From a virus (lineage: Duplodnaviria; Caudoviricetes), in IMG/VR virus record IMGVR_UViG_3300029305_002190, positions 1 through 64,000 of that record: 64,000 nucleotides of DNA. One strand, written 5' to 3'. Within the stretch, counting starts at the first letter, position 1, and each line of letters begins with the position of its first letter. This document shows positions 6,988 to 50,300 of the stretch, in pieces. The notes under the pieces were generated by a model. The model was not told the DNA's origin and ran no database searches. It saw only the letters and a list, made by a program, of their open reading frames with translations. Made by a program: the position numbers and the translations under genes.

Positions 6988-7051
6988 AAATTAATAATCA
7001 CTTCCAAATGAGCCACCATCCGGTAGCTCATTTTTTATTTATGAAAGGAGC

Positions 7052-27349: not shown

Positions 27350-27568
27350 ATGGAAAAAAAGTACGAATATGTAAAATCACTAAGGCTTGCAGGTTGGTTA
27401 ATGTTTAATGGATTCAGAATTTTGAGAATTAATCACAATCTTAAAGTTAAAGGAAAGGACGTTTATGTCTTTGAGCAATCTGAGAAATTGTCGGATTGCA
27501 TTTTTGATTATATAAATAAAAGAACTAAGGAGAATGATTATGATTTTAACAAAAGAAGTAGAAGTTAG
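27350..27568 (+). CDS. Small conserved phage protein (DUF5659-like)
   Basis: SLRLAGWLM..GF…VYVFE.S..L…I.DY; AAGGAG RBS. Confidence 0.65.
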   Translation: MEKKYEYVKSLRLAGWLMFNGFRILRINHNLKVKGKDVYVFEQSEKLSDCIFDYINKRTKENDYDFNKRSRS

Positions 27569-28598
27569 ATCTAATGGTAGTACAATTGAGTATTACGAGT
27601 CTCTTGGGTATGATTTACCAAAACGGAAAGCATCAATGTCCATATATCGACGTACTGGAAGAGAATTTGTGTACGATTTAGGAAAAACGTTTTTAGTTAA
27701 AGTTGAAGATTTGCCAACGCAAAGTGATATCACAATCTCTGCCGTATGTGATTATTGTAATGAGCCATATGAGGTTAAATATTACGCTTACTATAATAGC
27801 ACCAAAGGTCTCACTACAAAATGCGCTTGCAAAAATTGCGCATCTAAAAAACAGAGGGATATTATGTTGAGTACATATGGTGTTGCGAGCCCTTCTCAAT
27901 TGGATAGTGTTAAAGAAAAGAAAAAGCAAACGACACTTGAGCATTATGGTGTTGATAATCCGTCAAAAAGCAAAGATGTAAGAGACAAGGTCGAAAAAAC
28001 TATGATGGAAAGATATGGAGTTCCATCTCCTGCTCAAGTAAAAGAGTTTCAAGAGAAAAGAGCGGCGACTTGTATAGAACGTTTTGGAGTAGATTGCTCT
28101 TTGAAATCTACGGAAGTTAGAGAAAAAGCGGCGAAATCGCTGTATATCGCATCTTCTCAGAAGTGCTCTAAACAACAAATGTATTTGTTTAATTTATATA
28201 ATAATAAAGAAAATGTTGAAGTAAATTATCCTGTATTATATTATAATGTTGACCTTTGTTTTGTTAATAACAATATTGTGATGGAATACGACGGCAGTGG
28301 ACACGATTTAAGTGTTAAATTTGGGAATATAACACAAGATGAGTTTAAACACAAAGAAATGATTCGTAGCATAATTCTAAAAAGAGAAGGATATAAATTA
28401 ATTAAAATTATCTCCGCACAAGACAAACTACCATCAGACAAAATTCTATTTCAAATGTTAGAACAAGCAAAACAATATTTTTCCGACTATCCAAATCATT
28501 CTTGGATAGAGTTCAACATAGACACTTTTACTGTTCGTAGCGCCGAACATAAAGATGGTGTCTTTTTTGATTATGGAGAACTAAGAAAAATAAAATAA
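27534..28598 (+). CDS. Free-standing putative homing endonuclease (Vsr/DUF559-like nuclease domain)
   Basis: CDYC and C.C..C Zn motifs, four (Y/F)GV..PS-type repeats, C-terminal VDL…MEYDGSGH…R…L…GYKLIKI. Confidence 0.75.
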   Translation: MIMILTKEVEVRSNGSTIEYYESLGYDLPKRKASMSIYRRTGREFVYDLGKTFLVKVEDLPTQSDITISAVCDYCNEPYEVKYYAYYNSTKGLTTKCACKNCASKKQRDIMLSTYGVASPSQLDSVKEKKKQTTLEHYGVDNPSKSKDVRDKVEKTMMERYGVPSPAQVKEFQEKRAATCIERFGVDCSLKSTEVREKAAKSLYIASSQKCSKQQMYLFNLYNNKENVEVNYPVLYYNVDLCFVNNNIVMEYDGSGHDLSVKFGNITQDEFKHKEMIRSIILKREGYKLIKIISAQDKLPSDKILFQMLEQAKQYFSDYPNHSWIEFNIDTFTVRSAEHKDGVFFDYGELRKIK

Positions 28599-28622: not shown

Positions 28623-31600
28623 ATGCCTTTTATTAATAAAGTAACTGTTCGTGGCACTACATATTATTTGGAGAATCTAACGAACGGTTCTGATATTGCA
28701 AAATTACCAACAGCAGCTCAGGGACTAAAAGCCAATGATGTCCTGGTTACCGAAGGTACTTTGGGCAATTTTACAGTCACACCAGCTCAGTTTGAAGAGC
28801 TTAAGACTAATGTTAACGATCAGTTTAATACTCTGACCGAAGATTTTTCTGGCAAATTTAATACACTTGAGACCGATCTTACTGGCGAGATGGATACTTT
28901 CCAGAGAGATATTAACAGCGACTTAGCAGAGTTTAAGGCTGAGGTAGATAAATTAGTTCGATATGAATTGCCTATTGCAAGTGCAGATGCTCTTGGTGGT
29001 GTTCAGCCAGTTACAAAGACAGACGATATGACCTATGAAGTAGGTGTTGATGCCGAAGGAAAACTATGGGTTGTGTCTGATTTAGAAGAGTCTAAAGAAT
29101 ATATTGATTCAAAAGCTTATTCTGTGGAAATCGTAGACGTTTTACCTGCGGTTGAAGATGCTGAAGATAGAACATTCTATTTAATTCCTAAATCATCTGG
29201 TCGTGGTTACGAAAAGTATTGGAAGATTACTAAGACTACTACAGATGAAGAAGGTAATGAAGTTGTCGAGTCTCAACTAGATGAGTTTGCGGGATCTGCT
29301 ACTGAAATCGTTGCTGAACTACCTGTTACTGGAGAAGAAGATGTAGATTACCTAGTCTATGATGGTACTGTGTGTCTATACTATAAGTGGATTAGCGGCA
29401 ACTGGTGCATGGTTGCCGGTTCTGTCGCTAAAATTGTAGACACTCTTGAAGGTGAATCTGGAAACGAATATACTGATTATTACGTTAAAAACGGAGATAT
29501 TTATTTCCACTATCGTTGGGATAATGCAACTTCTAGCTTCGCAATGGTCGGTAGTGATAGTTATAATAAGACTGAAATTGATACTAAGCTTACGGCGATG
29601 AATGATGTCCTTGCGACAAAAGAAGAAGTAAATGTTGTGTCAGAGATTGCTGTTGGCAATGCAGAAAAAATTGAATATGTAAAAGATGATATCAAAGCAA
29701 TTAATAAAACCATTTCTGAAATGAAGGGTGATAATGAAAATCTTATCATTCAGTACAACGAAGTTGGCAGTGTCCTTCATCTATATGAAAGAGATGAAAA
29801 TGGTGATATCACAATTGTTGACGGTGACAAAGAAGTTAAAGTAAAAGAAATTTATTCCACTATTATTGTAGGTGGAGGCGGTGGTGGAGATGCATTAGTT
29901 TCTACTATCAAACTTGGCCTAAACGTAGATGGTGATAAAGATCTTAAAGTACTATATGGAAGTTCTGTTTCATTAAATTATATTTTGTCAACACGTAAGG
30001 CTACAACCACTCAAGATGAATCTGGCAAGGAAATAACCGTTTATGAAGAAGCTGTAATTCCTGGTGATATTACTATTACACTATACAAAGATAATATTTA
30101 TCAAACACATTTTACTATTAAAAAGACAGAGCTTACAGCACAAAAAGGTAGTATTGATGTAACTGATTATGTATCTTTAGGCTCACAAGTCTTAACACTT
30201 AAGGCTGCATATGTAGAGCAATTGGGCTCTGGTGAAGAAACTATTACCGTTAGAGCTGGCGCAGACTGGAGTGTCGAGGCAGTTAATTTAAAACTAATTG
30301 ATCTTCCTGATAATCAATGGGAGACTACACCAAAAACTGGCAGTACAACATTCTATTGTACACCTGTTGGTGATCTGGAAAAGAAAGTGTATTTTCAAAT
30401 TGACGATGCAGATCCAGAAATTAAAATTACTAAATTCAATGGCACTCCTATCCCATATACTATTAAAATGCAGCCACACGGTGTGCATACTTTGCGTATA
30501 TGGTGTACTGGCGAAATTGGTGGTAAAACTATTTCAACCGATGTTTATACTTATGTTTTGATGTTTAAAGAGAGTGGTAACAACACCCCTATTATTAGAA
30601 TCAAAGCACCAGAAACTCTAGAGCAATATTCTGCTGCCAATATTTATTATAATGTGGTTGACCCGCTTAATGACATTATTAATGAAGTAACTATTTATGA
30701 TGAAACTGGAGCCATTTTATCATCCGTCGTGAATATTACTTCAGCAGAACAAACTTATGAATTTAAGCCTACTGTTGCAAAAAATACAACAATTACTGTC
30801 AAATATAAAGACCAAACAGAATCTGCAAGTATTGAAGTTACTAAATTCCCATATGAAATTAGTGCGGTTACAAAAGATCTAATGCTAGACTTTGTTCCTA
30901 CTGGTAGAACGAACTCCGACGTAGATTACAATGTGTTCAAAAATAATGCTTATACTATTGAGATCGACGACGAATCTGGTGAGGAAATTCAAAAAGAGAT
31001 TCCTATGACTTGGGATTTCTCTGATAACTTTGACTGGATAAATGGTGGATGGCAGAGAGATGATGCGGGAGATACTTATTTCTGTGTAAAAGCAGGTACT
31101 TCTGTTTCATTTAATTATAAGCTTTTTGAAAACGCCAATACTGTGGCACAAAAGGATGCATATGGAAACTATTCTATTCCTGGTGTCGGTAAGGAATTTA
31201 AGATCATTTTCAAGACTACTAATGTTGCCCGCTCTGATGCAGAATGGCTAACATGCTATGGTCCAACTGAAGATGGATACAACACAGGTATTAGAATGGA
31301 AGTTCATAACGGATATGTTTCTTCTAATATTGGTACTCTTGAAATTCCTTATAGCGAGGAAGATATCATTGAGTTCGATACTAATATCGTTCCTATCTCT
31401 GAGTTTAGCCCAACTTATGAACCTCAGTTTACTTCAAAAAATATTCCAATGGTTCTGACATATGAAGATGGTACTCCTGTTCAGCCTATGGTTATTACGA
31501 GTGCATCTACTTCATTCCAGCAAGAAGATGCAGTGCCTATTACCATTGGTTCTGATTATTGTGACGTTCATATTTATCGTATGAAGGTATATAACAGATA

Positions 31601-33059
31601 TTTGACCGATAAGGAAATTTTGAATAACTTTATTGCTGACGCTCGTTCTGGCTTAACTATGGCGGAAAGATATGTTAGAAATGACATTTATACTGCTGAC
31701 GGTCAGCTAGATCCAGAAACATTGGCAAAGAAGTGCCCAGATTTATTTGTTTATGTTTTGTCTGCACCTAAGTTTACAAATGATAAGAAAGACAAGGTAG
31801 AAAACACAACTATTAGACAGTACAAATATGATGCAAAAACCAATTCATGGCCTATTGAATATAACTGGACTGCTACTGGGGCCATCCATAACGGCCAGGG
31901 TACGTCTTCAAACGAATATGGTTATGCAAGTAGAAACCTAGAATATAACATGAAGAAAGCAACCATTACTTTAGGTGATAACTCAACCGTTGTTAAGAAG
32001 ATTCAGTTGTCTGACACATCAGTGCCAACAAACTATCTAAACTTAAAGGTTAATGTTGCCTCTTCTGAGCATTGTAATAATGCGCTATTACAGAAGCGCT
32101 ATGACAGATATTTACCATATACTACATTGGCAGCAGAAAAAGACGATAGAGCTAAAAACTCTATGGAATTCTTTAACTGTGTTGTATTTATTCAGGAAAC
32201 TAGTGATGAAACACATAGAGAATTTAGTGATAAGGCAGTCCATTTCTACGCAATTGGTAATATAGGTGACTCTAAGAAGACAGATGATTCCAGAACTAAT
32301 GATCCAGATGATGTTAACGAATTCTGTGTTGAAGTTATGGACTGGAATAGAGACTTGTCTACTTTCCCTACAGAAACTCGTATGTTTGCCGCTCATACTA
32401 TTGGTTATGTAAAAGCAGAAGAGGAAGATTTAACTGTTGAAAACCTAGGCAATCTATATGAAAAAGTAGAGTTGCCAGAGGGAACTTCTTATGAGAAGAC
32501 ATCTGATAGTGAAATTAATCCTTTGACCACTTATTACGTTAAGACCGAGACTATTAAGTATATTGACCTGTTAACACCAGAAAATTGTGGTGAAGACGGT
32601 ATTGTTTATGAAATGAATTCCGACGGTGAGCTCGTTCATTCAATGGATACCGTAATGGACTTCACAAAGGATTATTATGTCGATGTTCTTGAGGGCGATG
32701 ACTTCAGTGAAGACTATACTTATGGTTTTAGATATATCCAAAACGAGTGGGACGAAGATGATGGTGCTGACTACAAGGAGAAGAATGAAGCATTCCAGAA
32801 ACCTTTGCGCCAAAAATGGGTTGAATTCTATCGTTTTGTTACTCGTGATTTAACGACTAATGGCAAAGAAGATAAAGCAAAGGTTGATGCATGGAAGAAA
32901 GAGTTTGAGGATTGGTTTATTCTAGACTCTGCTTTGTATTACTATCTATATACTTTGAGATATACCATGGTCGATAACAGAGCCAAGAACTCATTCTATC
33001 ATTATGGTAAGTGCCCTGATGGCAAATACAGATTTGAGTTCTGGGCGTACGATATGGAT
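28623..33059 (+). CDS. Exon 1 of a giant CotH-kinase-like virion-region protein
   Basis: Contains QGTSS..Y..RN, LKVNVASSEH.NN and DNRAKN; ends FWAYDMD at the predicted 5' splice site. Confidence 0.8.
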
Positions 33060-34308
33060 AAAATTTGTCCATGTAAAACCTCTATTGATTAATGGCGAAA
33101 ATCCAGAGATGGACAACGCTCAGGAAGATTATTAATTGTTTCAATCAATAATACAAAATGAAAGGAGTGAAAATATGAGAAAAATTAATAGTTATGAAAA
33201 ATATAAACATCTAATTGGTACAAAAATAAATGAATGGACTATTTTAGATGTTGTAGTTCGCAATGAAGAAAAACATCGTACATATTTGCTTGCGCAATGT
33301 AGCTGTGGAGAAATTAAAGAAATGTATATTTCAGATATATTTCAACAAACAGGAAAAGAGAAGAAAGATTGTGGTTGCGGTCACCGAAAGAGATTAGATA
33401 AAGCTGTGTTTGAGAAGTATGGCTATTTACTTGGGACAACCATTAATGGATGGACTATTTTAAAAATTCTTCCACCAAATGATAAGCATAAAAAAACTTA
33501 TGCTATCTGCTTGTGTCGATGCGGAACCATTAAAGAAGTTAAAATGAGTTACTTATTAAATGGCAATTCCAAAGATTGTGGATGCGGAAGAAAAGAAACT
33601 CTTAGCAAAATGCGGTCAAAAGATCTTACTGGACAAAAGTTTGGCAAGCTACTTGTGATCGAAAAAATGCCGTACAAAGATAAAAACGGTCATACACTGT
33701 ATAGATGCAGATGTGATTGTGGCAATGAAATTATTGTTCTTGGATACTCGCTCGTTACAAAGCATACATTGTCCTGTGGATGTTTAGTATCTTATTACAA
33801 CATGTACATAAAACAGTTTTTAGATAAAAACAATATTGAAAACAAGCCAGAACGTACCATTTTTATTGGTGACAATTACTATAGATTTGATTTCTATTTG
33901 CCTCAATACAATTTATTCATTGAGTATGATGGAGAGCAACATTTCAAACCAATACGATATTATACACAAACAGAAGAAGAAATGATGGCCGCATTTAAAA
34001 AGACGCAAGAACATGACCGTATTAAAAATAAATATTGTGAAGATAATCAAATTAATTTATTAAGAATTCCATATTGGGAAAAAGAAAATATTGAAACAAT
34101 TATAAATAATCACCTGCAACGACTGAGTATAGAGGGCTATATTGCTGAAGCGGTATAGTATGCAACAGTCTGAACTACGGCTATAATCTAAAAATGAAAC
34201 CGTAGAGGGTGGCTCAAAGGTATCTAGACCTTTTAAAGAAGAAGCTACCCCGCCTACTATATTGTAGGTCATAATCCACAAATGCCTAGTGTGGATAGTA
34301 ACAGATTG
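33060..34308 (+). mobile_element. Group I intron (1249 nt) with internal homing endonuclease gene
   Basis: Exon ends in U paired to G in P1 (atggat/gtccat). P3 ctctat/atagag. P7 gactg (34121)/cagtc (34166) in R/S-like contexts. P9 hairpins. Terminal G at 34308. Removal restores in-frame YDMD-TALGIDN. Confidence 0.92.
33175..34158 (+). CDS. Intron-encoded homing endonuclease (EDxHD/Vsr-like) with Cys-rich repeats
   Basis: AAGGAG RBS before ATG 33175; three C.CG…CGC repeats; RFDFYLP…IEYDGEQH…HD..KN.YC…LLRI.Y; 3' end overlaps the intron core. Confidence 0.88.
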   Translation: MRKINSYEKYKHLIGTKINEWTILDVVVRNEEKHRTYLLAQCSCGEIKEMYISDIFQQTGKEKKDCGCGHRKRLDKAVFEKYGYLLGTTINGWTILKILPPNDKHKKTYAICLCRCGTIKEVKMSYLLNGNSKDCGCGRKETLSKMRSKDLTGQKFGKLLVIEKMPYKDKNGHTLYRCRCDCGNEIIVLGYSLVTKHTLSCGCLVSYYNMYIKQFLDKNNIENKPERTIFIGDNYYRFDFYLPQYNLFIEYDGEQHFKPIRYYTQTEEEMMAAFKKTQEHDRIKNKYCEDNQINLLRIPYWEKENIETIINNHLQRLSIEGYIAEAV

Positions 34309-37300
34309 ACAGCTTTAGGTATTGACAACGCAGGTAAGCTTGACATTCCTTTTGGTCAAGAAGATCATGACGTTGATGCTGCTGGTGCAGCACACTTTAG
34401 AGCACATAACTCTACATTCTTTGACAGAATTGTTAAGTATTTCTCCGAAGAATTAAATGCAAGATGGGCAGCTATTGAACAAAGTCCTGCTGGCAATGCA
34501 TTTGATTCCGTTTCTCTGTTAAATGAGTTTGATGCATGGCAGCAACAATTTGCAGAAGAGCTATGGAGACTTGACTACGAAAGAAAATATAAGAGAACAT
34601 ATGTTGGTGGTAATGGCCCTGATTGGGATAATGCTTTACCAAAGAAAAATGAAGCTGGTGCAAATGTCACTGAGCCTCGTTTCCTAAAAGAAATGATGAA
34701 TGGACGTAAGAAGTATCAAAGAAGACAGTTTGAGAGAGCACAAGACACATACATGTCAAGTAAGTTCTTAGGTAGTAAAAATGTATCTGATACTATCACT
34801 CTTCGTGGTGCTGGTGCTTCAGAGACTCATCCTATTCCCGCTAATTATACTTTATCTATTATTCCATTCTCTAACATGTATATCAATATTCATGATGGTA
34901 CAACTAACTTCTATCACAATAGATGTTATGCTGGTCAGACATATAATATTGACTTACTTGGTGCTAGTGGAGCGTTTGACTTTGGATATATTAGAGGCTC
35001 TTCCAATATTCAAGAACTAGGCGACTTGTCACTGAAATATCTACAGACTGCAACATTGAATAGTGGTTCTAGATTGAAGACAATTAAGCTTGGTAATGCA
35101 GATGAAAGATATGAAAATAAATCTCTAAAGACTCTAGCAATTGGTTCTAGTAATAGACTACTTGAAGAGTTAGATATTAGAAATCTAAAATATCTGGCAA
35201 ATGAAAGCTTAGACTTACCTGTTACAAATATTCCTAGTTTGAAGCGTGTATATGCTCAAGGTTCTAATATTAGACAGGCACGTTTTGCCAATAATGGTTT
35301 GTTAGAGGAAGCATATCTACCAGCAACAGTTACCGAGTTGTCTCTACGTAATTTACACTTTATCAAGACTATTGAACTTGAAAGTTATGACAGTTTAGTT
35401 AACCTAACTATTGAAAACTGTCCAACTATGAATGACAAAGCACTTGTGATGATTGGTTTGGCAAAGAATTTAAAATCTGTAAAAGTAACCAACGTTAATT
35501 GGGAACAAAAAACAACTGACTTGTTGAATCGTATCGTAAGGATGAAGGGTAGCCTACTTACTGGTTTCGTAAAATTTACTGGCTATGTCAGACAAAGTGA
35601 ATTGGACGCATATGCAAATGCTTGGCCTGATTTGAATGTGGATATTAGTGAGGCAACTTTGGTGCCACAGTATCCAGTAGCGTTCTTTAACTATGATGGT
35701 GTTACTCCTATTTTAGATAAGAATGGCAATCCTTATGTACAGCTTGTTGATGAGTTTAAATCTCCATATGATCCTACCGAAAAAGATCCAAACACACCTA
35801 TCGATATTGATATGCCGACTCGTGAAGAAACTGCACAATATAAATATGTTTTCACAGGTTGGGATGGCATTAAAGGAACCGTTCCAGAGTTAACAAAAGT
35901 TGTGGCAATTTATGTTGAACAAGATCAGTATTATAATGTTTATTGGCATAACAAAAATGGTGATATATTGTATACAGTTAAGGATGTCAAGTATGGAAAT
36001 CCTGCCGTCTATGGCGGAAATTGGCCAACATATACTGTTAATGAAGCAGAGTATTATGAATATAGCATCTTTACTGGATGGGATATTAGCACTAGTGTTA
36101 TTGTTGGAGAAACTCACGCTTATGCACAATATGAAACAGTAAATGGCCTTCCTGCTAAAGGCACTGATATAAAAGATATGAGCGTCGCACAGATTTATAG
36201 TATTGTTACTTCTGGTAATAGTGCTGGTTATTTTGAAGACAAGGATTATATTGACATTAAACTTGGCAATGATTATTCTTACAACAATGTTGCAGAAAAT
36301 GTAATTATCAGTAACGATACTGTTTTGGATGGAACTGAATCTAAAGTAATTGAGTCTGATATTAAACTTTGCGGTTCAGATTCTCCTGCATTTACTATGG
36401 CTATCGACTTTGAATTTGGTGTTAATGATACTTCATCTCCTGTTAGACCCACTCTTGTTTCTTGTTTTGAAAATGCTAACTCTAAGGGAATGAGATTATT
36501 CTATGGTACTGATGGCAATCCTGCTATTCAATGGGGTGATCAGACAATGACTGTTGGATATGGCACACAAAGAAATATGGTTGTCATTCGTCATGCTAAG
36601 GGAGAAGAACTTGTACACGTTTATGCATTTAATGGTGTAAATGCTGGATCTGGTGCATATTCAACAAGTATTGATTATAGAACATTAACTCGTACTACAC
36701 AGCAATTCACAAATCGACCAGTTATTATCGGTGGTTTCAGATACGATCCAGAGGCTGGTTCAGACGTTGGTAAGCTTGGTGGACTATGTAATGGTATCGT
36801 GCATTGGGTTAAAGTTTGGAATGAAGATCTTGGTGATGTAGATGCTAGAAATCTAGCAGCATGGACTCATGAAACAATTCGTTTCCAATATTGTGGTAGT
36901 GGCAGATACCAGGTGAATCCTAATACTGGTCGTATGACTGGTGCATCTTTTATTTGCGAAAACCTATTAGCATATGGTGGCAATATTAATTCTAGCCAGT
37001 CTAATGTTGGTGGTTGGGAAGCATCTGAGATGAGAGATTTCTGTAATGATCGTGTATATAATGCATTCCCGACTGTATGGAAGTCTGTGATTAAGAAACC
37101 ATATATCCCTGCAAATATTGGTAATAATTCTTCTACTGTTGTAACATCTCAAGATTATATTTATCTGCCATCTTATGTTGAGTTGACTACTATTACTACA
37201 GATCCATATGATGATGAAGGTTACGCAATTAGTTGGATGATTAACCCCGCAGATAGAATTAAGAAACAAAATGGTGTTGCGACAAAATACTGGACTCGTT

Positions 37301-37422
37301 CTGCTATGAAGGGATATGACCGTTATTGGGTATATGTTGCCGAAGATGGTTCTATGAACGGAAATCTGACATATGCATATCCACAAACAAAGAACGGCAT
37401 TTGTCCTTGCTTCTCAATCTAA
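34309..37422 (+). CDS. Exon 2 of the giant CotH-kinase-like protein (kinase C-lobe, LRR-like, B-repeat-like, LamG-like, C-terminal lectin-like domain)
   Basis: Starts TALGIDNAG; LxxLxLxN repeats; Y.FTGWD units; C-terminal GGWEASEMR…YWTRS…GICPCFSI. Confidence 0.8.
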   Translation, partial: TALGIDNAGKLDIPFGQEDHDVDAAGAAHFRAHNSTFFDRIVKYFSEELNARWAAIEQSPAGNAFDSVSLLNEFDAWQQQFAEELWRLDYERKYKRTYVGGNGPDWDNALPKKNEAGANVTEPRFLKEMMNGRKKYQRRQFERAQDTYMSSKFLGSKNVSDTITLRGAGASETHPIPANYTLSIIPFSNMYINIHDGTTNFYHNRCYAGQTYNIDLLGASGAFDFGYIRGSSNIQELGDLSLKYLQTATLNSGSRLKTIKLGNADERYENKSLKTLAIGSSNRLLEELDIRNLKYLANESLDLPVTNIPSLKRVYAQGSNIRQARFANNGLLEEAYLPATVTELSLRNLHFIKTIELESYDSLVNLTIENCPTMNDKALVMIGLAKNLKSVKVTNVNWEQKTTDLLNRIVRMKGSLLTGFVKFTGYVRQSELDAYANAWPDLNVDISEATLVPQYPVAFFNYDGVTPILDKNGNPYVQLVDEFKSPYDPTEKDPNTPIDIDMPTREETAQYKYVFTGWDGIKGTVPELTKVVAIYVEQDQYYNVYWHNKNGDILYTVKDVKYGNPAVYGGNWPTYTVNEAEYYEYSIFTGWDISTSVIVGETHAYAQYETVNGLPAKGTDIKDMSVAQIYSIVTSGNSAGYFEDKDYIDIKLGNDYSYNNVAENVIISNDTVLDGTESKVIESDIKLCGSDSPAFTMAIDFEFGVNDTSSPVRPTLVSCFENANSKGMRLFYGTDGNPAIQWGDQTMTVGYGTQRNMVVIRHAKGEELVHVYAFNGVNAGSGAYSTSIDYRTLTRTTQQFTNRPVIIGGFRYDPEAGSDVGKLGGLCNGIVHWVKVWNEDLGDVDARNLAAWTHETIRFQYCGSGRYQVNPNTGRMTGASFICENLLAYGGNINSSQSNVGGWEASEMRDFCNDRVYNAFPTVWKSVIKKPYIPANIGNNSSTVVTSQDYIYLPSYVELTTITTDPYDDEGYAISWMINPADRIKKQNGVATKYWTRSAMKGYDRYWVYVAEDGSMNGNLTYAYPQTKNGICPCFSI

Positions 37423-41301: not shown

Positions 41302-44300
41302 ATGGGAAAAGATGTTAAGAAGAGATTTACGGTTAGTCTTGATATTGAAACCAAAGATGTTGAAAAACAAGTCAAAGCAACTGTTGGTAATCTAAAAACA
41401 ATTCTTGCGGATCTAGGTAAAGCATCTGATAAGATGGGTTATTTTAAAGAACTTGTTGATTATATTGGTCAGATTGATACAGCACTTACTGCATTAAGAG
41501 CAAAAAATAAAAATGCTTTTGACCATATGTTTGATGGTTTGGACGCAGATTTAAAGAAAGCGATGGAGGGCATTTTTGACACAAGTAGCAAAACAATGTC
41601 TGCACTTGATGCGCTTCGTGGTAAATTAAATGATGCATCAAAAAATGGTGCAGGAGTTAAAGAATTGAGACAGATCGCCTCTGAAATCAACGATTTGTTT
41701 ACCAGTCTTGGCAGAGCAGAACCAATTGATATTGATGCACAATTTTCTGGTAGAGGTAAAACAGAAGATAGAATAAATATATTAACCGATGCATTAGATA
41801 ATTTTGCAACTGTATGGGACGGCGTTAACAACAAGGTTAAGAGTGGATTTGGCTTTGGTGGCGCTGGTGGTATTGTAGAATTTAGTGAAGAAGTGCAAAA
41901 AGAGATTGATGCTTTAGAAGATAAAATTAAGTCAATTCAAGATCTAATGACAGAATTGCAAAATGTATTCAAAATGACCAAGGCATTTAGTGATGGCAAA
42001 GATGTGTCACTAGGATTCGAGGCCACAGAAGAATCAGCAAAAAACTTACTTGAGCAGTTTAAATTATTGTCTGCTACTAGACAAAAATTTCTTGAAGATG
42101 GGGACACATCATCACCTGCTTATTATGAAAATTTAATTCAGTACACTAAAGCTGCGACTCAACTAGTTGCTTTAAACGACGAGTTAGCAAAATCCAGTAA
42201 AGGTAGCCCAAAATTTTTAGCAAATGCGCTTTCTGGTGAGTTCGTAGATGTATATGACTTTATAGAGTCTTTTGATAAAAAGTTTGTGTCCGGTATTCAA
42301 ACCTCATTAAGTAAGATTGTTTCAGATGCACAAACTGGCATAGATAAAATTAAAGCAGATGCTCTGAAAAATATGTCACCAAGCACTGCTCAAGGAGCAG
42401 GAAGACCTGATGGTGGAAATGTTCCTGACGGAAAAGTGGAAAAAAACAAAGAGTTATCAAATTCCTACGAGGAATTGTCTAAGAAGGTTAATGAATATTA
42501 TGATATCCTTCAAAAAAGAAGCAAGTTTGATGAGGATTCTGATGAGTATAGACAGTTATCTTTTAGTCTTGACGCAATATCTGACTCCATAAAGAAAATA
42601 AAGTCATTAAATATTGATGAGACAATGGAGCTTACTGATGTTTTTGGAGATTTGGAATATGAAGAATATGGTCCAGAAGAAGCATTAAAAAGAATATGTA
42701 AAATACTACAGGTAGAGATTCCTTCTGCAGCCAAAACTGCAAAGAAAAGTCTTGATGAACTTGGAGGATCCACTGATGGCGGCACAGGTGTCTCAAGTGG
42801 TGGATCTGGCGGTACTATTACAAATGTCGATTTCACGTCTCTAGAAAATACTATTAAAGCGGAAATTGCATCTGTAGCAAATAAGTTAGATAGTGTTTTT
42901 AAAGTCGAAGTTGTGAAAAATGACACATCTGATATCAAAAATGCTATTGATGGAGTTAAATCAACCATTGAAAAGATTTCTGCAGAAATTGATGGTTACA
43001 ATGCATTAAAAAAGACTAACGCTCAGCAGGCTGAAGTCAATGCAATGAAGAATAATTTAACTCAGTTGTTCAAATTTGTATCTGAGTTTAATGCAAAACA
43101 AATTGATGGAAACTACCAACACCAGGAGATTAGCGCAGCAATTTTGTCAGATGGTTCAATATCTACTGGATATGGTGAACATGGTACTGTACCGTGGGAT
43201 AGGATGGCGAGCGCCCTAGTATCCAATTTGACAAAATCTTTGATGGTGGATATCCATTCTCATCCATGGGCACAAAATGGATTCTTAGATAGATATGCCA
43301 ACGATTCATTCAGTGGTTCAAAAGGTGACCTTGGTGCATTTAGATTCTCTAAAGAACTAGGTGCACAAATGGCAGCAATGATCACTGGCAATGTCATGAG
43401 AACTCTTGATGTAAGTAAGCTGACAGACGAGCAAATGAGACAATTCGGAAAAGCACTTGCTCAGATAGAAAAAACTCAAGCAAATACTCCTGAGTACTCT
43501 AAGTACATGGAGTACAAGAATGATAAATTGTATTATCATAGTCAACCAACACTGGATGAGCAACATAAAGTTACAGAGGCTTTTGAAAGCCTGATGTACA
43601 AAGCCTTTAAGGAGATAGGTTTATCAAAAAATAAAGTCGATAAGGAAATATTTAAAAAATATGACTTAACTGATGATGCACAGCTTACAGAGTTGGCTGA
43701 ACGCCTAGTTCATTTATCTCAGTCTTCACAGAACGCACTAAGTCCAGTTGAAAGACTTTCAGAGATTATCTCTCATTTTAGTGGCGACGTAAATAGCAAA
43801 ACAGCAAAAGAAAATTTTGAGGCGTTTACAAAAGGTGAGCTGACTGCCGCAGAAGTGTTCAATAACTTAAATCGTGATGGTCATACACTGAACCAAGAAA
43901 CGCTTGATTCTTTGTATAAAATTGATAGTGCCAATGAAATACCTGCTGTTGAATCATTGTTAACACAGGTTGTAAGTATTCTAAATACAATTGAATCAAG
44001 CGTGGCAAATATCAATAATAGCACAAGACAGAGCACAAGTGGTCAATTTGATACGGCAATCAATAACATCTTAGATATTCGTGAAGGTGTAAAAAACAAG
44101 AATATTTTAGCTGGAATAAAGTCAATTTTTGATCCTCTGAATATATCAGAATATAAAAACAAAGAAGTTTTGCAAATTGCTGATGGATCAATATTGGATG
44201 CAAAAGATTACATTCAGGACTTATTTGTGCAGTCTCATTCTGATGGCTCTGTAAACTTGGATGAAATGCAGGTTGCATTAGATAAATTTTATTTAGCAAT

Positions 44301-47300
44301 GTCTAATATCCAGGATGCGATTAAGCAAGTTGATCTGTACGAAGAGAGAACAGGCAAAACTTATGTAGATAGTGACGGCGATATAGCAAAGCTAACATTA
44401 AATGATAAATATAGAGAGATAACTGATGATAATTTATTACAGCAGTTATTGTATTTACTATCTCAAGCAAAAGTTGATATTAGTAAAAGCAAAGAATTTT
44501 ATCAAAATGGGTTTGGCGACAAGCAGACAGATTATGACTATGATAATAGTCAAGTGTCTAGTGTTCTGCAGTCCATACAATCTACATTAGACTCTATTTA
44601 TGGTGTCTTACATGGTTTTACTGGTATTGAGGCAGATAATAAAAATGCACTTAAGTATAAAGAGCCTGTAGTTGATACTGGTATAAATAGAAAAGAATTC
44701 TCTGAACAAGACCTTTCTGTTCTAAATTCTATTTTACAAGTACTACATGGCATTGATGGTTACTTGTCTACAAATAAACCTGATGACGTAACTGAAAAGG
44801 TTACTCAGGATAACACTGACATTTCTGAGCTTGTAAGCTTTATTAGATCAAAGCTATCTCAGCAACTTGCTACAGAAGATACATTGCAATCAATTAAGGG
44901 AGCAATAGAGCAAATTGCAGAACTTGCGAGATCAAAAGACGAATCTAAAAAGGACGATGGCGAAGATCTTACCCAAAACCTTAATACACTAATAAGTGCT
45001 TTGACTGCCAATGTGTCTACTTTAAAAGATGTAGCTAACGGAATTGTCCAGCACCAAAAGGCACAAAAATCTGATACAAGCAAGGCAATGGCCAGGATTC
45101 AAGATCCGACTGAACAGCAAATCATTTCTGGCATAGCAAAGAATTCTGTAATAGATCTTGGCACAGAAGTGGAAATTGAAAGTTTGCAGGCACTCGCAAA
45201 TGGCTTAGTTAAGGTTGAAGGTGCTTTTAAAAATGCAAATGGTCAATGGGAAGGGTTTGCTGTTAAGGTCAATGAAGCGAATGCAGCAGTCGATCTTGCA
45301 ATTAAGAAGCAGTCTGTATTTGCAAGAGCTTTGAACAAAGCTAAAGATATTGATGAAAATACATACCAATATAACAAAGAAGAAGTCGAGGCAAGGGCGC
45401 AAAAGCATCTTGAAGAGTATGCTGCTCAGGGCAAAAATGCAACAGTGCAATTTAAGGATAGTGGTAGATATACCATTACTATCCTAGAAGAAATTGATGG
45501 CTTATCTAAGCAAATCTTCCAGACATTTGATGAGAATGATGATAAGATTGAGCGTACCACTGTCACTATGTCTAATAAACAAAAACTTAAGTTAGAAAAT
45601 TTGCAAAAGAAGCTTATAGATAATGGTCTAACTAATGGTTTAATTAGCGACAAGGACAATGAGTATAAAAATTATCAAGCTGCTGCTGATGCATTAAGTA
45701 ACATGACTAATGCGTATAGTCAGATGGATAATATTTCCGACGTAGAGATTGCAAACTGGAAACAACAAATTGCACTTGTACAGCAATTAGGCGGTCAGGT
45801 AGAGGCATTAATTAATCAAAGAAAAGCAGTAAATGATCAGAAAGTTTTTGAATCTGATAGAACAAAAAAGCTAGGTAGGTTCAATTTAGACAAGGCAAAT
45901 CTTGAAAGCAATATCGACATGACAAAAATTTCTGATAAATTAAAATCAGATATTGCTGATGCAGGAAAAGCTATAGCAAATGCAACTGATGCAGACAGTT
46001 TAAAAATTGCAATCAATAACTGGGAAGCATTACAGAATCAAATTAAAGCAACTGCTGTTCAACAAGATTTATATATTAAAAAGACAAAAGAGATTAGCGG
46101 AGGCAATACCAAAAAAGGCCAAGCATATGGAACTAGTCAGCTACAGAATTTTACTGCAAGATATAATTCGCTAAGAACTGGCGCATCTGAAGTTGGTTTG
46201 AATGAGCAGTCCACTGTTGTTGCTAATTTGGCAAATGCGTACAAACAGTTGCAGGTGGCTCAAAGCGCATTTGTTGCAGGTGAAGACAAGACTTCTGCAG
46301 AATATGCGAAAAAAGTTGAAGTTTTTAAGGCCGCACAATTAGCATGTAACAATTATGCAAGGGAATTGAATAAAGTTGTCACTGCTTCAAAGAAGTTAGA
46401 AGCAGAAAGTGTTGCGTCTGATGTATTGGATGAAGATTTTAAAGATACAATTGATGGTCGTAAGGTTGCACTTAAAGATTTTGTTCAGACGACATATGGG
46501 TCAAAGGCAGTTGTTGGAGAATTTACTAATCAATTTAATGAATTAAACTTTGTTGTTAAAAATGGTGATGGCACGTTCACTAGAATGACAGCGTCTATTA
46601 ATGAAGCAAGAACGGCCATTCACGCAACTGCTGGTGCCACAGGAGAAGTTACTAACAAGTTTAAGTCATTTATTAATGAGCTTTCAGGAAAATTCAAATC
46701 AATTAGCACATACTTTATGGCATCGTTTGGTATCGAAGAAGTATGGCAACAGTTGAGACAAGGTATTCAGTATGTAAGAGAGATAGATTCTGCTTTAACA
46801 GAACTTAAAAAGGTTACAAATGAAACTGATGCAAGCTATGATGCGTTCTTGCAATCAATGTCCAAGACTGGCAGTGTTATTGGTGCGACAGTTCAAGATT
46901 TGACAACGATGGCTGCAGATTGGGCAAGACTTGGCTATTCTATGGAAGAGGCAGGTAAGCTTGCTGAGAGTACTGCTATCTTGCTTAATGTCTCTGAATT
47001 TGATGATGCTACTGCTGCATCTGAAGCATTGATTTCTACAATGCAGGCATTCAAGTATACTGCGGATGATAGTCAACATGTTGTTGACATCCTCAATGAA
47101 GTTGGTAACAATTACGCAGTATCCTCTGACGGAATTGCAACAGCACTACAAGATTCCGCTTCTGCATTGATGGAAGCTGGCAACAACTTAGAACAGTCAG
47201 TCGCTCTAGTAGCTGCTGCCAATAAGGTTGTTCAGGATCCTAATTCTGTAGGTAGTGCATTGCGTACAATCTCTCTAAGACTCCGTGGTACTTCAGTAGA

Positions 47301-50300
47301 AGTACTAGAAGAATTGGGAGAGGAAACTGATGGAGCAGTAGAAAGCATCAGTAAGATGCAAGAAAAAATTAAGGCACTAACTGGCGTAGATATTTTAACA
47401 GATAGTGGCTCTTATAAAGAAACATATACAATTCTAAAAGAAATCGGTACAGTTTGGGAAGACATGTCTGATATTGACCAGGCAGCACTACTCGAACTCA
47501 TGGCAGGTAAAAACCGTGCAAACACTCTAGCTGCCATCCTTGGCAACATGGAAGACCTAGAGGGTGCATACAACGATGCCTTAAAAGCAGAAGGCTCAGC
47601 ATTAAAAGAAAACGAAGCATACTTGGATTCCATTCAAGGTAGAATCGACCTATTCAAAAATTCACTCCAAACAATGTGGATGAATTTTGTTGACTCCAGT
47701 GTTGTCAAATTTATTGTTGATATCGGAACCGCCTTGATTAAAACAGCAGATGCGATGGGAGTTCTATCAACTGCAGCAGGTGGATGGGCTGGTATAAAAA
47801 CCATGATTAGTTCAATAAAAACTGATTTTGAGTCTATCAGCAATGGAACTTTTAACAAAGATATTTTTGGATTTAAGCAAATGCTTGAATCTGGCGATAT
47901 TGCCAAAAAGACTATTCAAGAAGTAGATAAGGCAATTCAAGACCAAACAGATACCAAAAATAAAAATGCTAAAGCAACAAAAGAGCAAATTAATGCAGAT
48001 ATACAAAAAATTAGCACACAGCAGACTGAAAATGCTGTAGAGAGTGCTGGTGCAGTGCAAACAGGTGTAGATACTGCACAAAAAATAGCAAACGAAAAAG
48101 CCACATGGGGACAGGTTGCAGCAGAAAGAGCTCTTGCTGTTGCCAAGGGTTTAGTAAAAGGACTTCTAATAGGTGCAGTAGTATCCCTAGCAGCAACTGC
48201 GATTACAGGTGTTATTAGTGCAATTTCTGATGCTTCAAAACGCATGGATGAATTGACAGATAGTGCAATTAAGTCTGCTGAAGAAACCAAAGAAGCACAA
48301 GAAAGCATTTCTGATTACAAAGATGAAATTGCAGATCTTGGAAAAGTCCTCAATGATAATGCGTCTTCGGAGACAGAACTTTACGACGCACGTAAAAGAT
48401 TAATTGAAATTCAAAATGAATTGATTGATAAATTTGGTCTAGAAGCAAAGGGATTAGATTTAGTTACTGATGCAATTAATGGTCAAACTAATGCTTTGGA
48501 TAAATTATCTCAGAAGTCTGCCTCCGACTGGATGAAAGAAAATATGGAAGCATATAAAGAAGCCAAAAATGAAATGGCAAAAACATATGATTCCAATAGA
48601 GAACTTCTGTTATTTGGTCAATCCAATTCTTCTGTAACAGGAACATCTGGAACTTTGGCTAATGCATCTCAAGATGTAATTAATGATTATCAAGATGGAT
48701 TGAAACGGATCATCGAAGATGAATATGGTGGAACTTTATCTGAAAAAATTTCCTCTAGTGTAGACGACTTAGGAAATACAATTAGTTTTGATAATATTTA
48801 TGCTTCTTTTGAAGGTAAAACAACCGAAGAACTAGATAAGGTATTTGATGCAATTCAAACATATTTATTGGATTTTGAAAATAATTATGATGGCATTGAC
48901 CTTAGTGATGAAATTATAAGAGTTCAAAATTTAAGAAACAAGTATGTTGACGAAGATTATAAAAAATCTAGAGAGTTATATGATTCTGGTCGCCAACAGG
49001 AAGCAATATCTAATTACGCCAAAGAGTATGGGGCTATTCTAGATGCAGAAGAAGAAATTTACAATGCAAAAAATGATGAAGAAAAACTAAATGCACTTAA
49101 AGAGTATAGGACGGCACTAGAGGCAGCAAAAAATGCAAAAACTGATGACCCACACATGGATGACTATTTTGACAAGATTGGCAAAAAATTTGATGAACAA
49201 GAGTATGAATTAAAAGTCAAATTGGACGAAGATGGTCTAAAGTCTAATCTGGAAGAAATAATTAACAGTGGAGGAGAAAGTGGCCTATCTGTTTTGGATG
49301 ATGTTGCAATCCAAGATATGGTTAATAGAGGACTAAATGTCGAGGGTGCAACTGATTCTAGTGGCAAATACACACAGGAACAAATCAGTGGATTGATTGC
49401 GTTACAATCAGAAGCAGATAAGGCTGGTATTAGCGTTGATAGCCTAATTAGCATTTTAACTAAACTTGGATTGGTTGCAGGCAAGCCTATAGAACAATCT
49501 GCTGAAAGTGTCAAGGCAGTTGCTGAAACATACTCAACACTTCGTGAGTCTGTTGATGGCTATAACGAAGTCCTCACACGAACCTCCGAAATCGTCTCTG
49601 ACAATACCGAAGTAACCCAAGAATATAAAGACTCCTTGAAAAGTCTTGGATTTTCCGAAGAAGAACTTGCAGATTGTTTTGATGAAAACAATAAGTTAAT
49701 TGTTAAGAACGCCGCTTTGCTAAATAAGCTTGTCAAACAAAAGAAACAAGATAAAACAGCAACCGTTCAGCAAGCCAAGGCATATGGACAGCTTCAGTAT
49801 AAAACTACTATTTCTCAAATTGGTCAACTTGTCAATAGAATGGCTACCGAAATTAAGGCCACAGGTTATGTATCTGCTGCTACATTGGATAACATTAGTG
49901 TGTTGCGTGAACAGTTAGATGTTATTAAACAAACCATTCAGCAATACGCTTTGCTCGAATTAAGCCTCAGCGATGCAGCTCAGGCTTATAGCGATTTTGA
50001 AGCAGCAAAACAAAGAGATGCACAACTAACTTATGGCGATTCAATGGTAGAAATGTTGGATGTTATCAATGAAGGTTTTAAGACTGGGCAGGTAGGCACC
50101 GAGGCGTTTCAGTTTGCTGTTAAGGCGATTGTTCCTCCTGAGTTTTATGAGAACATTGACGATGCTCAAGATAGAATGCAAGCAATTCATGATTATGTTG
50201 ATAAGCATCCTTTGTTTGCAGATTATTTCACCATTGACGAGGGTGAAATCTCCATCACAATGGACAACATCAAGGCATTTATTAAAGATTGTCAAGATGT

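What the first reader, a model, noticed from the sequence alone, without database searches (positions are those of the whole stretch)
33060..34308. Group I intron with EDxHD-type endonuclease interrupts the kinase active-site motif
Seen: P1 with the U-G splice pair (exon …atggat | aaaattt gtccat), P3, P7 (gactg/cagtc), several P9 hairpins and terminal G34308. Splicing joins …YDMD to TALGIDN… in frame, merging two ORFs that the track lists separately. The endonuclease ORF has its own RBS and runs into the catalytic core. Known: phage group I introns mostly target DNA-metabolism genes, with a few in terminase, lysin or tail genes. I know of none in a CotH-like gene. Splicing would gate production of the full-length protein.
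Basis: partly seen in the sequence, partly recalled or inferred. Interest (0 to 1): 0.8.

Follow-up and report, generated by a model that had tools for sequence, protein, structure and literature searches.

The report
Mobile intron splits phage tail-module gene
A 1,249-base self-splicing-type (group I) intron that carries its own DNA-cutting "homing" enzyme sits exactly inside the most conserved motif of a giant phage tail-module protein, and related phages carry the same gene without it or with a stripped-down copy of it.

Summary
Window 33060-34308 is a precisely bounded 1,249-nt insertion. It splits one ~2,516-aa gene (28623-33059 + 34309-37422) between D and T of the invariant motif W-x-Y-D-x-D|T-A-x-G.

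Intronless alleles read straight across this point. A 99%-identical protein reads ...YDMDTALGIDN..., and a 94%-identical IMG/VR contig reads ...GATATGGAT|ACAGCT.

The insert folds into a full group I layout: P1 with a U·G pair, P3-P9, a bulged-C/G-C site in P7, and a terminal G. The 327-aa endonuclease ORF lies in the P6a loop, and its 3' end overlaps P6'-P8.

Three ORF-less relatives test the fold independently: two at the same site (L034, L038) and one 14 nt downstream (L031). With L034 and L038, 216 of 219 cells pair and 20 of 75 pairs show compensatory change. Slid controls give 31-41% pairing and 0-1 compensatory pairs.

Caveats:
- Rfam RF00028 does not detect this intron family, not even the ORF-less copies.
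- No RNA evidence separates splicing from intronless strains.
- The endonuclease is Vsr-like by fold, but it shows no detectable sequence link to the EDxHD prototype.
- "CotH kinase" rests on marginal Pfam hits in 44-46%-identical homologs.

This is a new member of a known kind, in an unusual host gene.

The parts
28623..33059 (+). Exon 1 of the host gene (1,479 codons), ending ...FEFWAYDMD
   Evidence: ORF. phrog_14959 positions 475-1167. Homologs run on past this point.
33060..34308 (+). Group I intron, 1,249 nt
   Evidence: Absent from intronless alleles. Fold. Covariation. CM R1 hits both halves.
33054..33072 (+). P1: exon AUGGAU with internal guide GUCCAU; U33059·G33067 at the 5' splice site
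   Evidence: The guide sequence co-varies with the exon in L034/L038 (AACGAU/GUCGUU) and L031 (GGCAU/GUGCC).
33090..33092 (+). In-frame TAA that ends exon-1 read-through (KICPCKTSID*) inside J3/4, just before P4
   Evidence: The same tail appears in the split homologs P0005, P0010 and P0013.
33079..33085 (+). P3 5' strand (CCUCUAU); pairs with 34129-34135
   Evidence: Two compensatory pairs against L034/L038.
33094..33120 (+). P4 (33094-97/33117-20), J4/5 AAAA, P5 (33102-05/33110-13) with GAGA loop, J5/4 CAA
33121..33133 (+). P6 and P6a 5' strands; pair with 34113-16 and 34105-11 and close the loop that holds the ORF
   Evidence: In ORF-less relatives P6a is a 4-bp hairpin.
33162..33166 (+). 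AGGAG ribosome-binding site of the endonuclease ORF
   Evidence: Read directly.
33175..34158 (+). Homing endonuclease ORF, 327 aa: three Cys-rich repeats plus a C-terminal Vsr-like nuclease domain
   Evidence: PHROG 374/559/9084/7140. 1,263 homologs. Invariant E226, D239, E250, D252, H256, D281, K284. AF2 pLDDT 86.3. Foldseek top hit Vsr.
34105..34116 (+). P6a' and P6' 3' strands, inside the ORF
34119..34125 (+). P7 5' strand A[C]GACUG with bulged C34120; G34121-C34170 is the putative guanosine-binding pair
   Evidence: The same A[C]GACU / AGUCU core is read in the T4 td intron and L004. Role of the pair is inferred.
34129..34135 (+). P3 3' strand (AUAGAGG)
34137..34158 (+). P8, 9 bp with UGAA loop; its last three bases are the ORF stop codon
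   Evidence: Sequence differs in all three same-site copies but all 9 pairs are kept.
34159..34171 (+). J8/7 (UAUGCAA) and P7 3' strand (CAGUCU)
   Evidence: Identical in L034/L038.
34175..34296 (+). P9 (34175-80/34200-05), P9.1 (34207-14/34243-50, inner stem 34216-21/34228-33), P9.2 (34252-57/34264-69), P9.3 (34274-80/34290-96)
34308..34308 (+). Terminal G (omega-G) at the 3' splice site. Possible P9.0: A34173, A34174 with U34306, U34307.
   Evidence: A terminal G is present in all 4 introns. P9.0 shows a compensatory change in L034.
34309..37422 (+). Exon 2 (1,037 codons plus stop), starting TALGIDNAGKL and ending in DUF6273

Best explanation
Window 33060-34308 is a mobile group I intron. 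It lies in a ~2,516-aa tail-module protein whose central domain is related to CotH-family kinases.

Proposed mechanism, with the status of each step:
1. The gene is transcribed as one RNA (inferred).
2. Ribosomes reading exon 1 stop at the in-frame TAA 33090-92. This leaves the ribozyme core free to fold (inferred from what the review PMC3984707 reports for other introns).
3. The internal guide GUCCAU pairs with the exon end AUGGAU and presents U33059·G33067 (structure shown; function inferred).
4. P3-P8 and P4-P6 assemble. A free guanosine bound at the G34121-C34170 pair in P7 attacks the 5' splice site. G34308 then takes that site and the exons are ligated to give ...GAUAUGGAU-ACAGCUUUA... 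(inferred; no splicing assay was done).
5. The 327-aa protein translated from its own AGGAG/ATG in the P6a loop is a Vsr-like homing endonuclease. It cuts intronless alleles near the insertion site, so that repair copies the intron in (inferred from family and context).

Shown here:
- the exact boundaries;
- intronless and intron-bearing alleles side by side in close relatives;
- a conserved, co-varying RNA structure;
- ORF-less and ORF-bearing forms of the same intron;
- an intron core better conserved than its exons.
For: 1. Junction.
- P0004 is 99% identical over the 400-aa query and 2,511 aa long. It reads ...EFWAYDMDTALGIDNAGKL....
- The L002 contig ends ...GATATGGAT|ACAGCT.
- P0001 and P0002 are uninterrupted across the motif.
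- Metatranscriptome contigs in X18 (1 contig) and X19 (2 contigs) join 33059 to 34309. One X19 contig carries an A>G synonymous variant.

2. Polymorphism.
- Among the 15 non-self clusters with at least 83% identity and full query coverage, 7 are cut at the junction: P0005, 8, 10, 11, 12, 13, 18. Sequences were seen for 5 of the 7.
- The other 8 are continuous: P0004, 6, 7, 9, 14-17.
- DNA run X17 has contigs with 0 differences that bridge both splice sites. X12 has a ~4%-diverged intron-bearing allele.

3. Structure.
- All canonical helices are present.
- Independent MFE folds of L034, L038 and L031 give the same layout.
- Window + L034 + L038: of 75 pairs, 45 are invariant, 4 one-sided, 20 compensatory and 6 broken (3 of the 6 are alignment gaps in P9.3).
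- 216 of 219 cells pair, against 30.6-41.1% when the partner is slid by ±1-3 columns and at most 53% in 1,000 partner permutations. Compensatory pairs reach 0-1 when slid and at most 5 when permuted.
- L031 against the window over 36 core pairs: 19 the same, 1 one-sided, 16 compensatory, 0 broken.
- U at the exon end, G opposite it, and a terminal G occur in all 4 introns.

4. Family coherence.
- A covariance model built only from L034 + L038 hits window 34094-34206 (88.3 bits, E 6e-22), window 33077-33170 (48.1 bits, E 4.5e-11) and L031 (62.9 bits).

5. Mobility signature.
- The intron is 86.6% (5' 67 nt) and 73.1% (3' 197 nt) identical to L034.
- The flanking exons are 56-64% identical over 300-600 nt.

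6. Endonuclease.
- All 33 aligned homologs carry LQR[LP], which is encoded by P6'-J6/7-P7. In 17 of 33 the tail holds a Y[AVT]T[VIA] motif, which is how J8/7-P7' translates; most of these end there.
- The L004 relative lies beside canonical R/S-like core sequences, read by eye.
Against: - Rfam RF00028 found nothing in the window at gathering score or at E<=10 in 32900-34500 and 34090-34330.
- It found nothing in the whole 109-kb record (0 of 7 candidates), nor in the ORF-less L034 intron at E<=10.
- The same model does find the ORF-bearing T4 td and nrdB introns, below threshold (40.3 and 35.7 bits, E 1e-7 and 2.5e-6). The miss is therefore not explained by the ORF alone.
- My own model R1 did not hit the T4 introns or L004.
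- The intron lacks P2 and P7.1/P7.2. J3/4 is 8 nt, which is longer than I recall as usual. P10 is weak by my own reading (no tool check).
- There is no direct evidence of splicing. The RNA-library contigs with the joined form come from diverged strains (22 differences in 297 nt of exon 1 in X18). No intron-bearing contig bridges a splice site in those runs, and intronless DNA alleles exist. These contigs may simply be intronless phages.
Confidence: 0.88

Rival explanations
1. The insert is a homing-endonuclease gene cassette that has split the gene into two separately translated halves, as seen for some split phage genes. There is no RNA splicing, and the flanking 'intron' sequence has no function.
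For: - Gene callers list two ORFs. An ATG at 34282 opens the downstream frame.
- Rfam finds no group I intron.
- Many database entries are truncated ~1,483-1,498-aa proteins.
Against: - The ORF-less 273-nt copies at the same site (L034, L038) carry no endonuclease, yet they interrupt the frame with stops. They would destroy the gene unless they are removed.
- The non-coding flanks are conserved and show 20 compensatory pairs.
- No purine-rich ribosome-binding site precedes ATG 34282, which lies inside the P9.3 hairpin (read).
- The insertion neither adds nor removes exon codons.
Confidence: 0.05
2. The element is a decayed, splicing-dead group I-like relic, and the host gene in this phage is a pseudogene.
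For: - There is no curated-model match.
- The record is an incomplete metagenomic contig (69% complete by CheckV).
- There is no RNA proof of splicing.
Against: - Every core helix is intact in the window.
- Intron-bearing alleles occur in 7 of 15 close clusters and in several independent runs.
- Both exons keep long open frames and all invariant residues.
- Compensatory evolution implies selection on the RNA fold.
Confidence: 0.05
3. It is a structured self-splicing or protein-assisted intron of a type distinct from classical group I, and only looks like group I in its helix order.
For: - Neither RF00028 nor my model R1 links it to the T4 introns.
- There is no P2 and no P7.1/7.2.
Against: - The helix order P1-P3-P4-P5-P6-P7-P3'-P8-P7'-P9 is present, with the P3/P7 pseudoknot.
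- The U·G pair, the terminal G, the bulged nucleotide next to a G-C pair in P7 and the A-rich J4/5 are the defining group I features.
- The P7 sequence A[C]GACU/AGUCU is the same as in T4 td.
Confidence: 0.02

Closest known systems
Phage group I introns with an ORF in the P6 loop (T4 td with I-TevI, T4 nrdB with I-TevIII)
   Same: - Interrupts a phage protein-coding gene at a conserved motif.
- The endonuclease ORF with its own start lies in the P6/P6a loop.
- There is an in-frame stop early in the intron.
- The P7 core A[C]GACU/AGUCU is the same.
   Different: - No P7.1/P7.2 and no P2.
- The ORF runs through P6', P7, P3' and P8.
- Not found by RF00028, whereas the T4 introns score 36-40 bits.
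- The nuclease is Vsr-like, not GIY-YIG or HNH.
- The host gene is a tail-module protein, not a nucleotide-metabolism enzyme.
I-Bth0305I / EDxHD homing endonucleases (recA intron of Bacillus phage 0305phi8-36; PMC3239194, passages read)
   Same: - Encoded in a phage group I intron.
- C-terminal Vsr-like nuclease domain with conserved E, D, H, D.
- The D-to-H spacing is 17 residues, as for D196-H213 (my count against the numbers).
- N-terminal DNA-binding region followed by a C-terminal nuclease.
   Different: - No detectable sequence match to 3R3P in the PDB.
- Searching the whole 0305phi8-36 record found only gp194, a different 'homing nuclease' (41% over 64 aa).
- The N-terminus is three Cys-rich repeats rather than NUMOD/HTH motifs.
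- The H-to-D spacing is 25 residues, not 9.
CotH-family atypical protein kinases (Pfam PF08757; B. subtilis CotH with D228 and D251 essential, PMC7821199 passages)
   Same: - The homologs P0111 and P0120 pass the Pfam cut-off, and the match spans the junction-equivalent position.
- Invariant D-N-R-A-K-N followed 26-28 residues later by Y-D-x-D resembles a kinase catalytic loop plus a metal-binding Asp (the mapping is inferred).
- Benler et al. note CotH-family kinase domains in phage proteins as unstudied (PMC8008677 passage).
   Different: - The window's protein and its 99% allele give no CotH hit.
- A PDB sequence search found no CotH.
- The domain sits in a ~2,500-aa multi-domain tail-module protein.
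- Kinase activity is untested.

Membership tests
Group I intron | P1 helix between the 5' exon end and an internal guide sequence, with a U·G pair at the splice site | tested here: met
   - AUGGAU/GUCCAU with U33059·G33067.
- The guide co-varies with the exon in L034, L038 and L031.
Group I intron | Terminal guanosine at the 3' end of the intron | tested here: met
   - G34308.
- Present in all 4 family members.
Group I intron | Conserved core P3-P8 and P4-P6 in the order P3-P4-P5-P5'-P4'-P6-P6'-P7-P3'-P8-P8'-P7', with a P3/P7 pseudoknot | tested here: met
   -.
- 20 compensatory pairs among 75, and 98.6% of cells paired against 31-41% in slid controls.
Group I intron | Guanosine-binding site: a G-C pair in P7 next to a bulged nucleotide | tested here: met
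   - Bulged C34120, then G34121-C34170.
- The same arrangement is read in T4 td.
- Binding itself cannot be tested here.
Group I intron | Match to the curated covariance model Rfam RF00028 | tested here: not met
   - No hit in the window, in its 109-kb record or in the ORF-less L034 copy.
- Control: T4 td and nrdB score 40.3 and 35.7 bits, below the gathering score of 50.
Group I intron | Guanosine-dependent self-splicing with exon ligation | not testable with these tools
   The joined form seen in RNA libraries cannot be told apart from intronless strains.
EDxHD (I-Bth0305I-like) homing endonucleases | Vsr-like nuclease fold with conserved E, D, H, D catalytic residues | tested here: met
   - E226, D239, H256 and D281 are invariant in 33 sequences.
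- Foldseek rank 1 is 1cw0_A and rank 7 is 1vsr: prob 1.00, TM 0.52-0.55 on the target, but E only 0.02-0.07.
EDxHD (I-Bth0305I-like) homing endonucleases | Detectable sequence homology to the prototype I-Bth0305I | tested here: not met
   - phmmer and a profile search of the PDB found no 3R3P.
- A search of the whole 0305phi8-36 record found only gp194.
EDxHD (I-Bth0305I-like) homing endonucleases | Site-specific cleavage of the intronless allele | not testable with these tools
CotH kinase family (PF08757) | Pfam model match above the gathering score | tested here: inconclusive
   - Window exons, own genome, P0004 and P0002: no hit.
- P0001: 18.6 bits, below the 23.8 cut-off.
- P0111 and P0120: 29.8 and 28.0 bits.
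- 6 of the 120 listed homologs carry a precomputed PF08757 hit.
CotH kinase family (PF08757) | The junction lies at a catalytic or metal-binding Asp | not tested
   - No residue-level alignment to a solved CotH was obtained.
- The mapping of D1446/N1451 and D1472/D1474 to the kinase catalytic residues is inferred.

The most novel reading that the evidence does not exclude
The window holds one member of a large family of mobile group I introns that current curated models do not detect.
- The family is specialised on tail-module genes of large gut phages: the CotH-like giant protein at two sites 14 nt apart, and tape-measure genes.
- It spreads between phages whose host genes are only ~60% identical.
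- It re-targets itself by changing its guide sequence.
- It travels with a Vsr-like endonuclease whose C-terminal tail is encoded by the ribozyme core.

Its presence or absence could decide which of two co-infecting phages passes on its tail genes.
Probability: 0.35. Interest if true: 0.6.

Novelty: new member of a known kind. Interest (0 to 1): 0.45.

Why it matters
- Annotation. The two ORFs, and many truncated database entries of ~1,400-1,500 aa, are halves of one gene. At least 7 of 15 close clusters are mis-split in this way.
- Model coverage. A well-formed, co-varying group I intron family with over a thousand endonuclease relatives (1,263 hits) escapes Rfam RF00028. Phage intron counts based on that model are therefore underestimates.
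- Host gene. Three different mobile insertions sit on the most conserved motifs of this gene in related phages: YDxD|TALG, TALGI|, and GQG|TSSN with an HNH endonuclease. These motifs are good candidates for the functional core of the still unstudied phage CotH-like proteins.
- Experiments. The natural set of intron-plus, intron-minus and ORF-less alleles is ready material for homing and phage-competition experiments.

Tried and rejected
Searches that found nothing or did not help:
- Megablast, blastn and tblastn of the region and of the exon-1 tail against the 'phages' collection gave no match. The exon-2 head gave 5 distant records.
- Exact patterns from the intron core in IMG/VR gave 0 hits and one chance hit, L016, inside an unrelated coding region. 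L016 was rejected on reading.
- The exon-2 head in IMG/VR found no relative.
- The endonuclease relatives L005-L015 share only the Cys-rich repeats. L006 was read and is unrelated in context.
- A MAFFT alignment of the full window intron with the short copies misplaced the 5' half (A4). A5 misaligned the P6-P7 region of L031. Neither was used for counts.
- PDB sequence searches for CotH found only coiled-coil, LRR or lysozyme noise.
- NCBIfam found nothing for the two endonuclease-like ORFs.
- The paper PMC4922149 (Nguyen 2016) is not held. CotH residue numbers therefore come only from passages of PMC7821199.

Read laying:
- The joined form in the RNA runs X18 and X19 is not counted as evidence of splicing.
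- Parts without cover mean nothing.
- Small shares of words in X18-X20 say nothing about habitat.

Other limits:
- In one search my L034 P1 coordinates were off by one. The 4 'broken' cells in the L034 rows of that call are my slip. One search shows L034 P1 fully paired.
- The intron subgroup was not determined.
- Supplements of the papers were not opened. The supplementary alignments of PMC3239194 could bear on EDxHD membership.
Full report
**Context.**
- The window is the first 64 kb of a 109,183-bp linear IMG/VR virus record, rated 69% complete.
- The region lies in a tail and structural module. Neighbouring ORFs match PHROG tail-fibre, endolysin-like and virion families.
- In the related phage NatCom_3357 the homologous gene lies between Dit and the holin/endolysin genes.
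- ORF 28623-33092 (1,489 aa) and ORF 34282-37422 (1,046 aa) flank a 340-aa ORF at 33136-34158.

**One gene, exactly interrupted.**
- Both flanking products hit the same 2,494-position PHROG, phrog_14959, at positions 475-1167 and 1738-2000.
- Uninterrupted homologs read straight across the proposed junction:
  - P0001 (PV036416.1)...PYDFDTAIGINNEGAL....
  - P0002...WAYDMDSAEGIDNRGEL....
  - P0004, 99% identical over the 400-aa query...EFWAYDMDTALGIDNAGKLDIPFGQEDHD... This is exon 1 joined to exon 2 with nothing added or lost.
- At the DNA level, a 94%-identical IMG/VR contig ends ...GATATGGAT|ACAGCT, 6 nt past the junction.
- In an alignment of 27 full-length homologs the junction falls between invariant D1474 and T1475. 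It sits inside the block W1469, Y1471, D1472, D1474, G1478, N1481, G1483, downstream of invariant D1446-N-R-A-K-N1451.

**Presence and absence.**
- Among the 15 non-self clusters with at least 83% identity and full coverage, 7 stop just after the junction. Their read-through tails are KICPCKTSID*, KNCPCKTSID* or RDLSM*. I saw 5 of the 7 sequences.
- The other 8 clusters are continuous.
- Two further clusters, P0019 and P0020, are N-terminally cut. They carry the exon-2 DUF6273 domain, so by length they are continuous. I did not read their sequences.
- Of the 19 IMG/VR loci found with P0106:
  - 16 are continuous;
  - L032 is the contig end already seen as L002;
  - L034 is interrupted at the same site;
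  - L031 is interrupted 14 nt downstream.
- Laid contigs show the identical intron-bearing allele in DNA run X17. Its 151-nt contigs bridge both splice sites with 0 differences. DNA run X12 holds a ~4%-diverged intron-bearing allele.

**The RNA structure.**
- Helices P1 through P9.3 were defined on the window alone and checked by script. Coordinates are in the parts list.
- A ViennaRNA fold of the intron with the ORF loop removed returned all nested helices. MFE was -90.4 kcal/mol, z = -6.0 against 200 mononucleotide shuffles.
- P7 cannot appear in a nested fold because it forms a pseudoknot with P3.
- Hallmarks present:
  - U33059·G33067 in P1;
  - A-rich J4/5 (AAAA);
  - a GAGA loop on P5;
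  - bulged C34120 followed by G34121-C34170 in P7;
  - a 7-nt J8/7;
  - terminal G34308.
- Absent or atypical: no P2, no P7.1/7.2, an 8-nt J3/4 and a weak P10.

**Independent test with relatives.** These copies were found only after the structure had been fixed.
- L034 (intron 6525-6797) and L038 (6599-6871) carry a 273-nt ORF-less intron at the same codon boundary, in genes whose exons are only 56-64% identical to the window's.
- L031 carries a 299-nt ORF-less relative (6886-7184). It is inserted after ...ACGGCACTTGGCAT, 14 nt downstream. Its guide sequence is re-written to GUGCC, opposite exon GGCAU.
- Each of the three folds on its own into the same layout.
- Window + L034 + L038:
  - of 75 pairs, 45 are invariant, 4 one-sided, 20 compensatory and 6 broken; 3 of the 6 are alignment gaps where the short copies form a different P9.3 hairpin;
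  - 216 of 219 cells pair;
  - slid partners give 30.6-41.1% paired and 0-1 compensatory pairs;
  - 1,000 partner permutations give a mean of 39.8% paired (maximum 53.0%) and at most 5 compensatory pairs.
- P8 has a different sequence in each of the three copies, but all 9 pairs hold.
- L031 against the window over 36 core pairs: 16 compensatory, 1 one-sided, 0 broken.
- This rests on only three to four sequences from two or three lineages. The counts are of pairs, not of independent events.

**Curated and home-made models.**
- Rfam RF00028 found nothing in the window, in the whole record or in the ORF-less L034 copy.
- As a control it found the ORF-bearing T4 td and nrdB introns at 40.3 and 35.7 bits, below its gathering score of 50.
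- It did not find L004, a relative's intron that shows canonical R and S elements by eye, at E<=0.01.
- A model built from the L034 and L038 cores (R1, 156 positions, 37 pairs) hit both halves of the window intron and L031:

| Target | Bits | E-value |
|---|---|---|
| Window 34094-34206 | 88.3 | 6e-22 |
| Window 33077-33170 | 48.1 | 4.5e-11 |
| L031 | 62.9 | 4.4e-15 |

- R1 did not hit T4 or L004.
- The family is therefore coherent. Its tie to classical group I introns rests on architecture and on the shared P7 core A[C]GACU/AGUCU, not on a statistical model match.
- R1 found no other copy in the window's own record.
- It did find copies in related phage records. Two of these interrupt PhageMin_Tail (tape-measure type) genes.

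**The endonuclease.**
- The ORF (ATG 33175, AGGAG 8 nt upstream) matches PHROGs named HNH endonuclease, homing endonuclease and intron-encoded nuclease. It has no Pfam or NCBIfam hit.
- It has 1,263 homologs with E<=0.001.
- In 33 aligned sequences E226, D239, E250, D252, H256, D281 and K284 are invariant. Three Cys-rich repeats precede the nuclease domain.
- The AlphaFold model has pLDDT 86.3 and pTM 0.44. Its best PDB matches are Vsr endonuclease: 1cw0_A (E 0.02, prob 1.00, TM 0.52 on the target, rmsd 3.0 Å over 101 columns) and 1vsr. No match reached E<=0.001.
- The EDxHD family is defined by conserved Vsr catalytic residues (PMC3239194, passages read).
- The prototype was not found by sequence in the PDB.
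- A search of the 0305phi8-36 genome found only gp194, a different 'homing nuclease' (41% identity over 64 aa).
- All 33 homologs carry LQR[LP], which is encoded by P6'-J6/7-P7. In 17 of 33 the tail holds a Y[AVT]T[VIA] motif, which is how J8/7-P7' translates; most of these end there.
- P0126 ends ...YATVWTATII, which matches the L034 core read in that frame.
- The protein family and the ribozyme core are therefore physically interlocked.

**The host domain.**
- Pfam CotH passes its cut-off in P0111 (29.8 bits, residues 1253-1362, profile positions 116-226) and P0120 (28.0 bits).
- In P0111 the junction-equivalent position is 1349|1350, inside the match.
- P0001 scores 18.6 bits across its junction.
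- The window's exons, its 99% allele and P0002 give no hit.
- B. subtilis CotH needs D228 and D251 (PMC7821199, passages).
- The spacing of invariant D1446 to D1472/D1474 is 26-28 residues, and a D-x-x-x-x-N pattern is present. This fits a kinase catalytic loop plus a metal-binding Asp, but that is my inference.
- Benler et al. mention phage CotH-family kinase domains as unstudied (PMC8008677, passage).

**Novelty in print.**
- A full-text search for 'group I intron' + CotH + phage returned 0 papers.
- The review PMC3984707 (passages) names polymerases, ribonucleotide reductases and terminases as the usual phage targets.
- I did not make an exhaustive survey of introns in tail genes. One search was a listing only.

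**Verdict.** This is a real, precisely bounded and very probably functional mobile group I intron with a Vsr-like homing endonuclease. It sits in the best-conserved motif of a CotH-like tail-module gene. It is an ordinary kind of element in an unusual place, and it belongs to a family that curated models miss.

Noticed in passing
L031:6886-7184 (IMG/VR locus); also proteins P0025, P0041, P0095, P0102, P0106: A second insertion site lies 14 nt downstream, after ...TALGI. L031 holds a 299-nt ORF-less intron of the same family there, with its guide sequence re-written to GUGCC opposite exon GGCAU. The five database proteins end 5-6 codons past the window's site, with tails such as KYLCQV*.
   Followed up: partly
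L030:5564-6437 (and a ~340-nt insertion at the same place in L031): A third insertion interrupts the same gene family about 960 nt upstream, inside the invariant GQG|TSSN motif. In L030 it carries a 176-aa ORF with NUMOD4 and HNH_3 domains. The exon appears to end in C, not U, so its type is unclear.
   Followed up: partly
L045 (G003:69927-70123) and L044 (G005:56645-57395): Model R1 finds further copies of this intron family in related phages. These interrupt genes with the PhageMin_Tail (tape-measure type) domain.
   Followed up: partly
window 27534-28598 (+): A second endonuclease-like ORF lies directly upstream of the host gene. It matches phrog_12131 'homing endonuclease' (E 3e-37) and Pfam DUF7487. 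It appears free-standing.
   Followed up: partly
L002 / L032 (IMGVR_UViG_3300029305_002725, contig end): A 100.8-kb contig of a close relative ends 6 nt after the intron insertion point, and exon 2 was not found elsewhere in that record. This looks like an assembly break at a site that is polymorphic for the intron.
   Followed up: partly
window 34159-34172: Just after its stop codon, the endonuclease frame still reads YATV followed by a stop. This is the C-terminus used by 17 of 33 homologs, so the window's TAG in P8 looks like a secondary shortening.
   Followed up: partly
window 41302-54492 (+): A single 4,396-aa ORF lies further along the same strand. It was not examined.
   Followed up: no
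window 34166-34172 and 34302-34308: In the nested MFE fold CAGUCUG (P7') pairs with the intron's last seven bases, CAGAUUG. This is an alternative pairing that competes with P7. Whether it means anything is unknown.
   Followed up: no
L004:1744-1930: An IMG/VR relative of the nuclease domain (47% identity) is followed by sequences that read like canonical group I R and S elements (GUUCAACGACUAUC ... GAAGAUAUAGUCU). Rfam does not report it at E<=0.01.
   Followed up: partly
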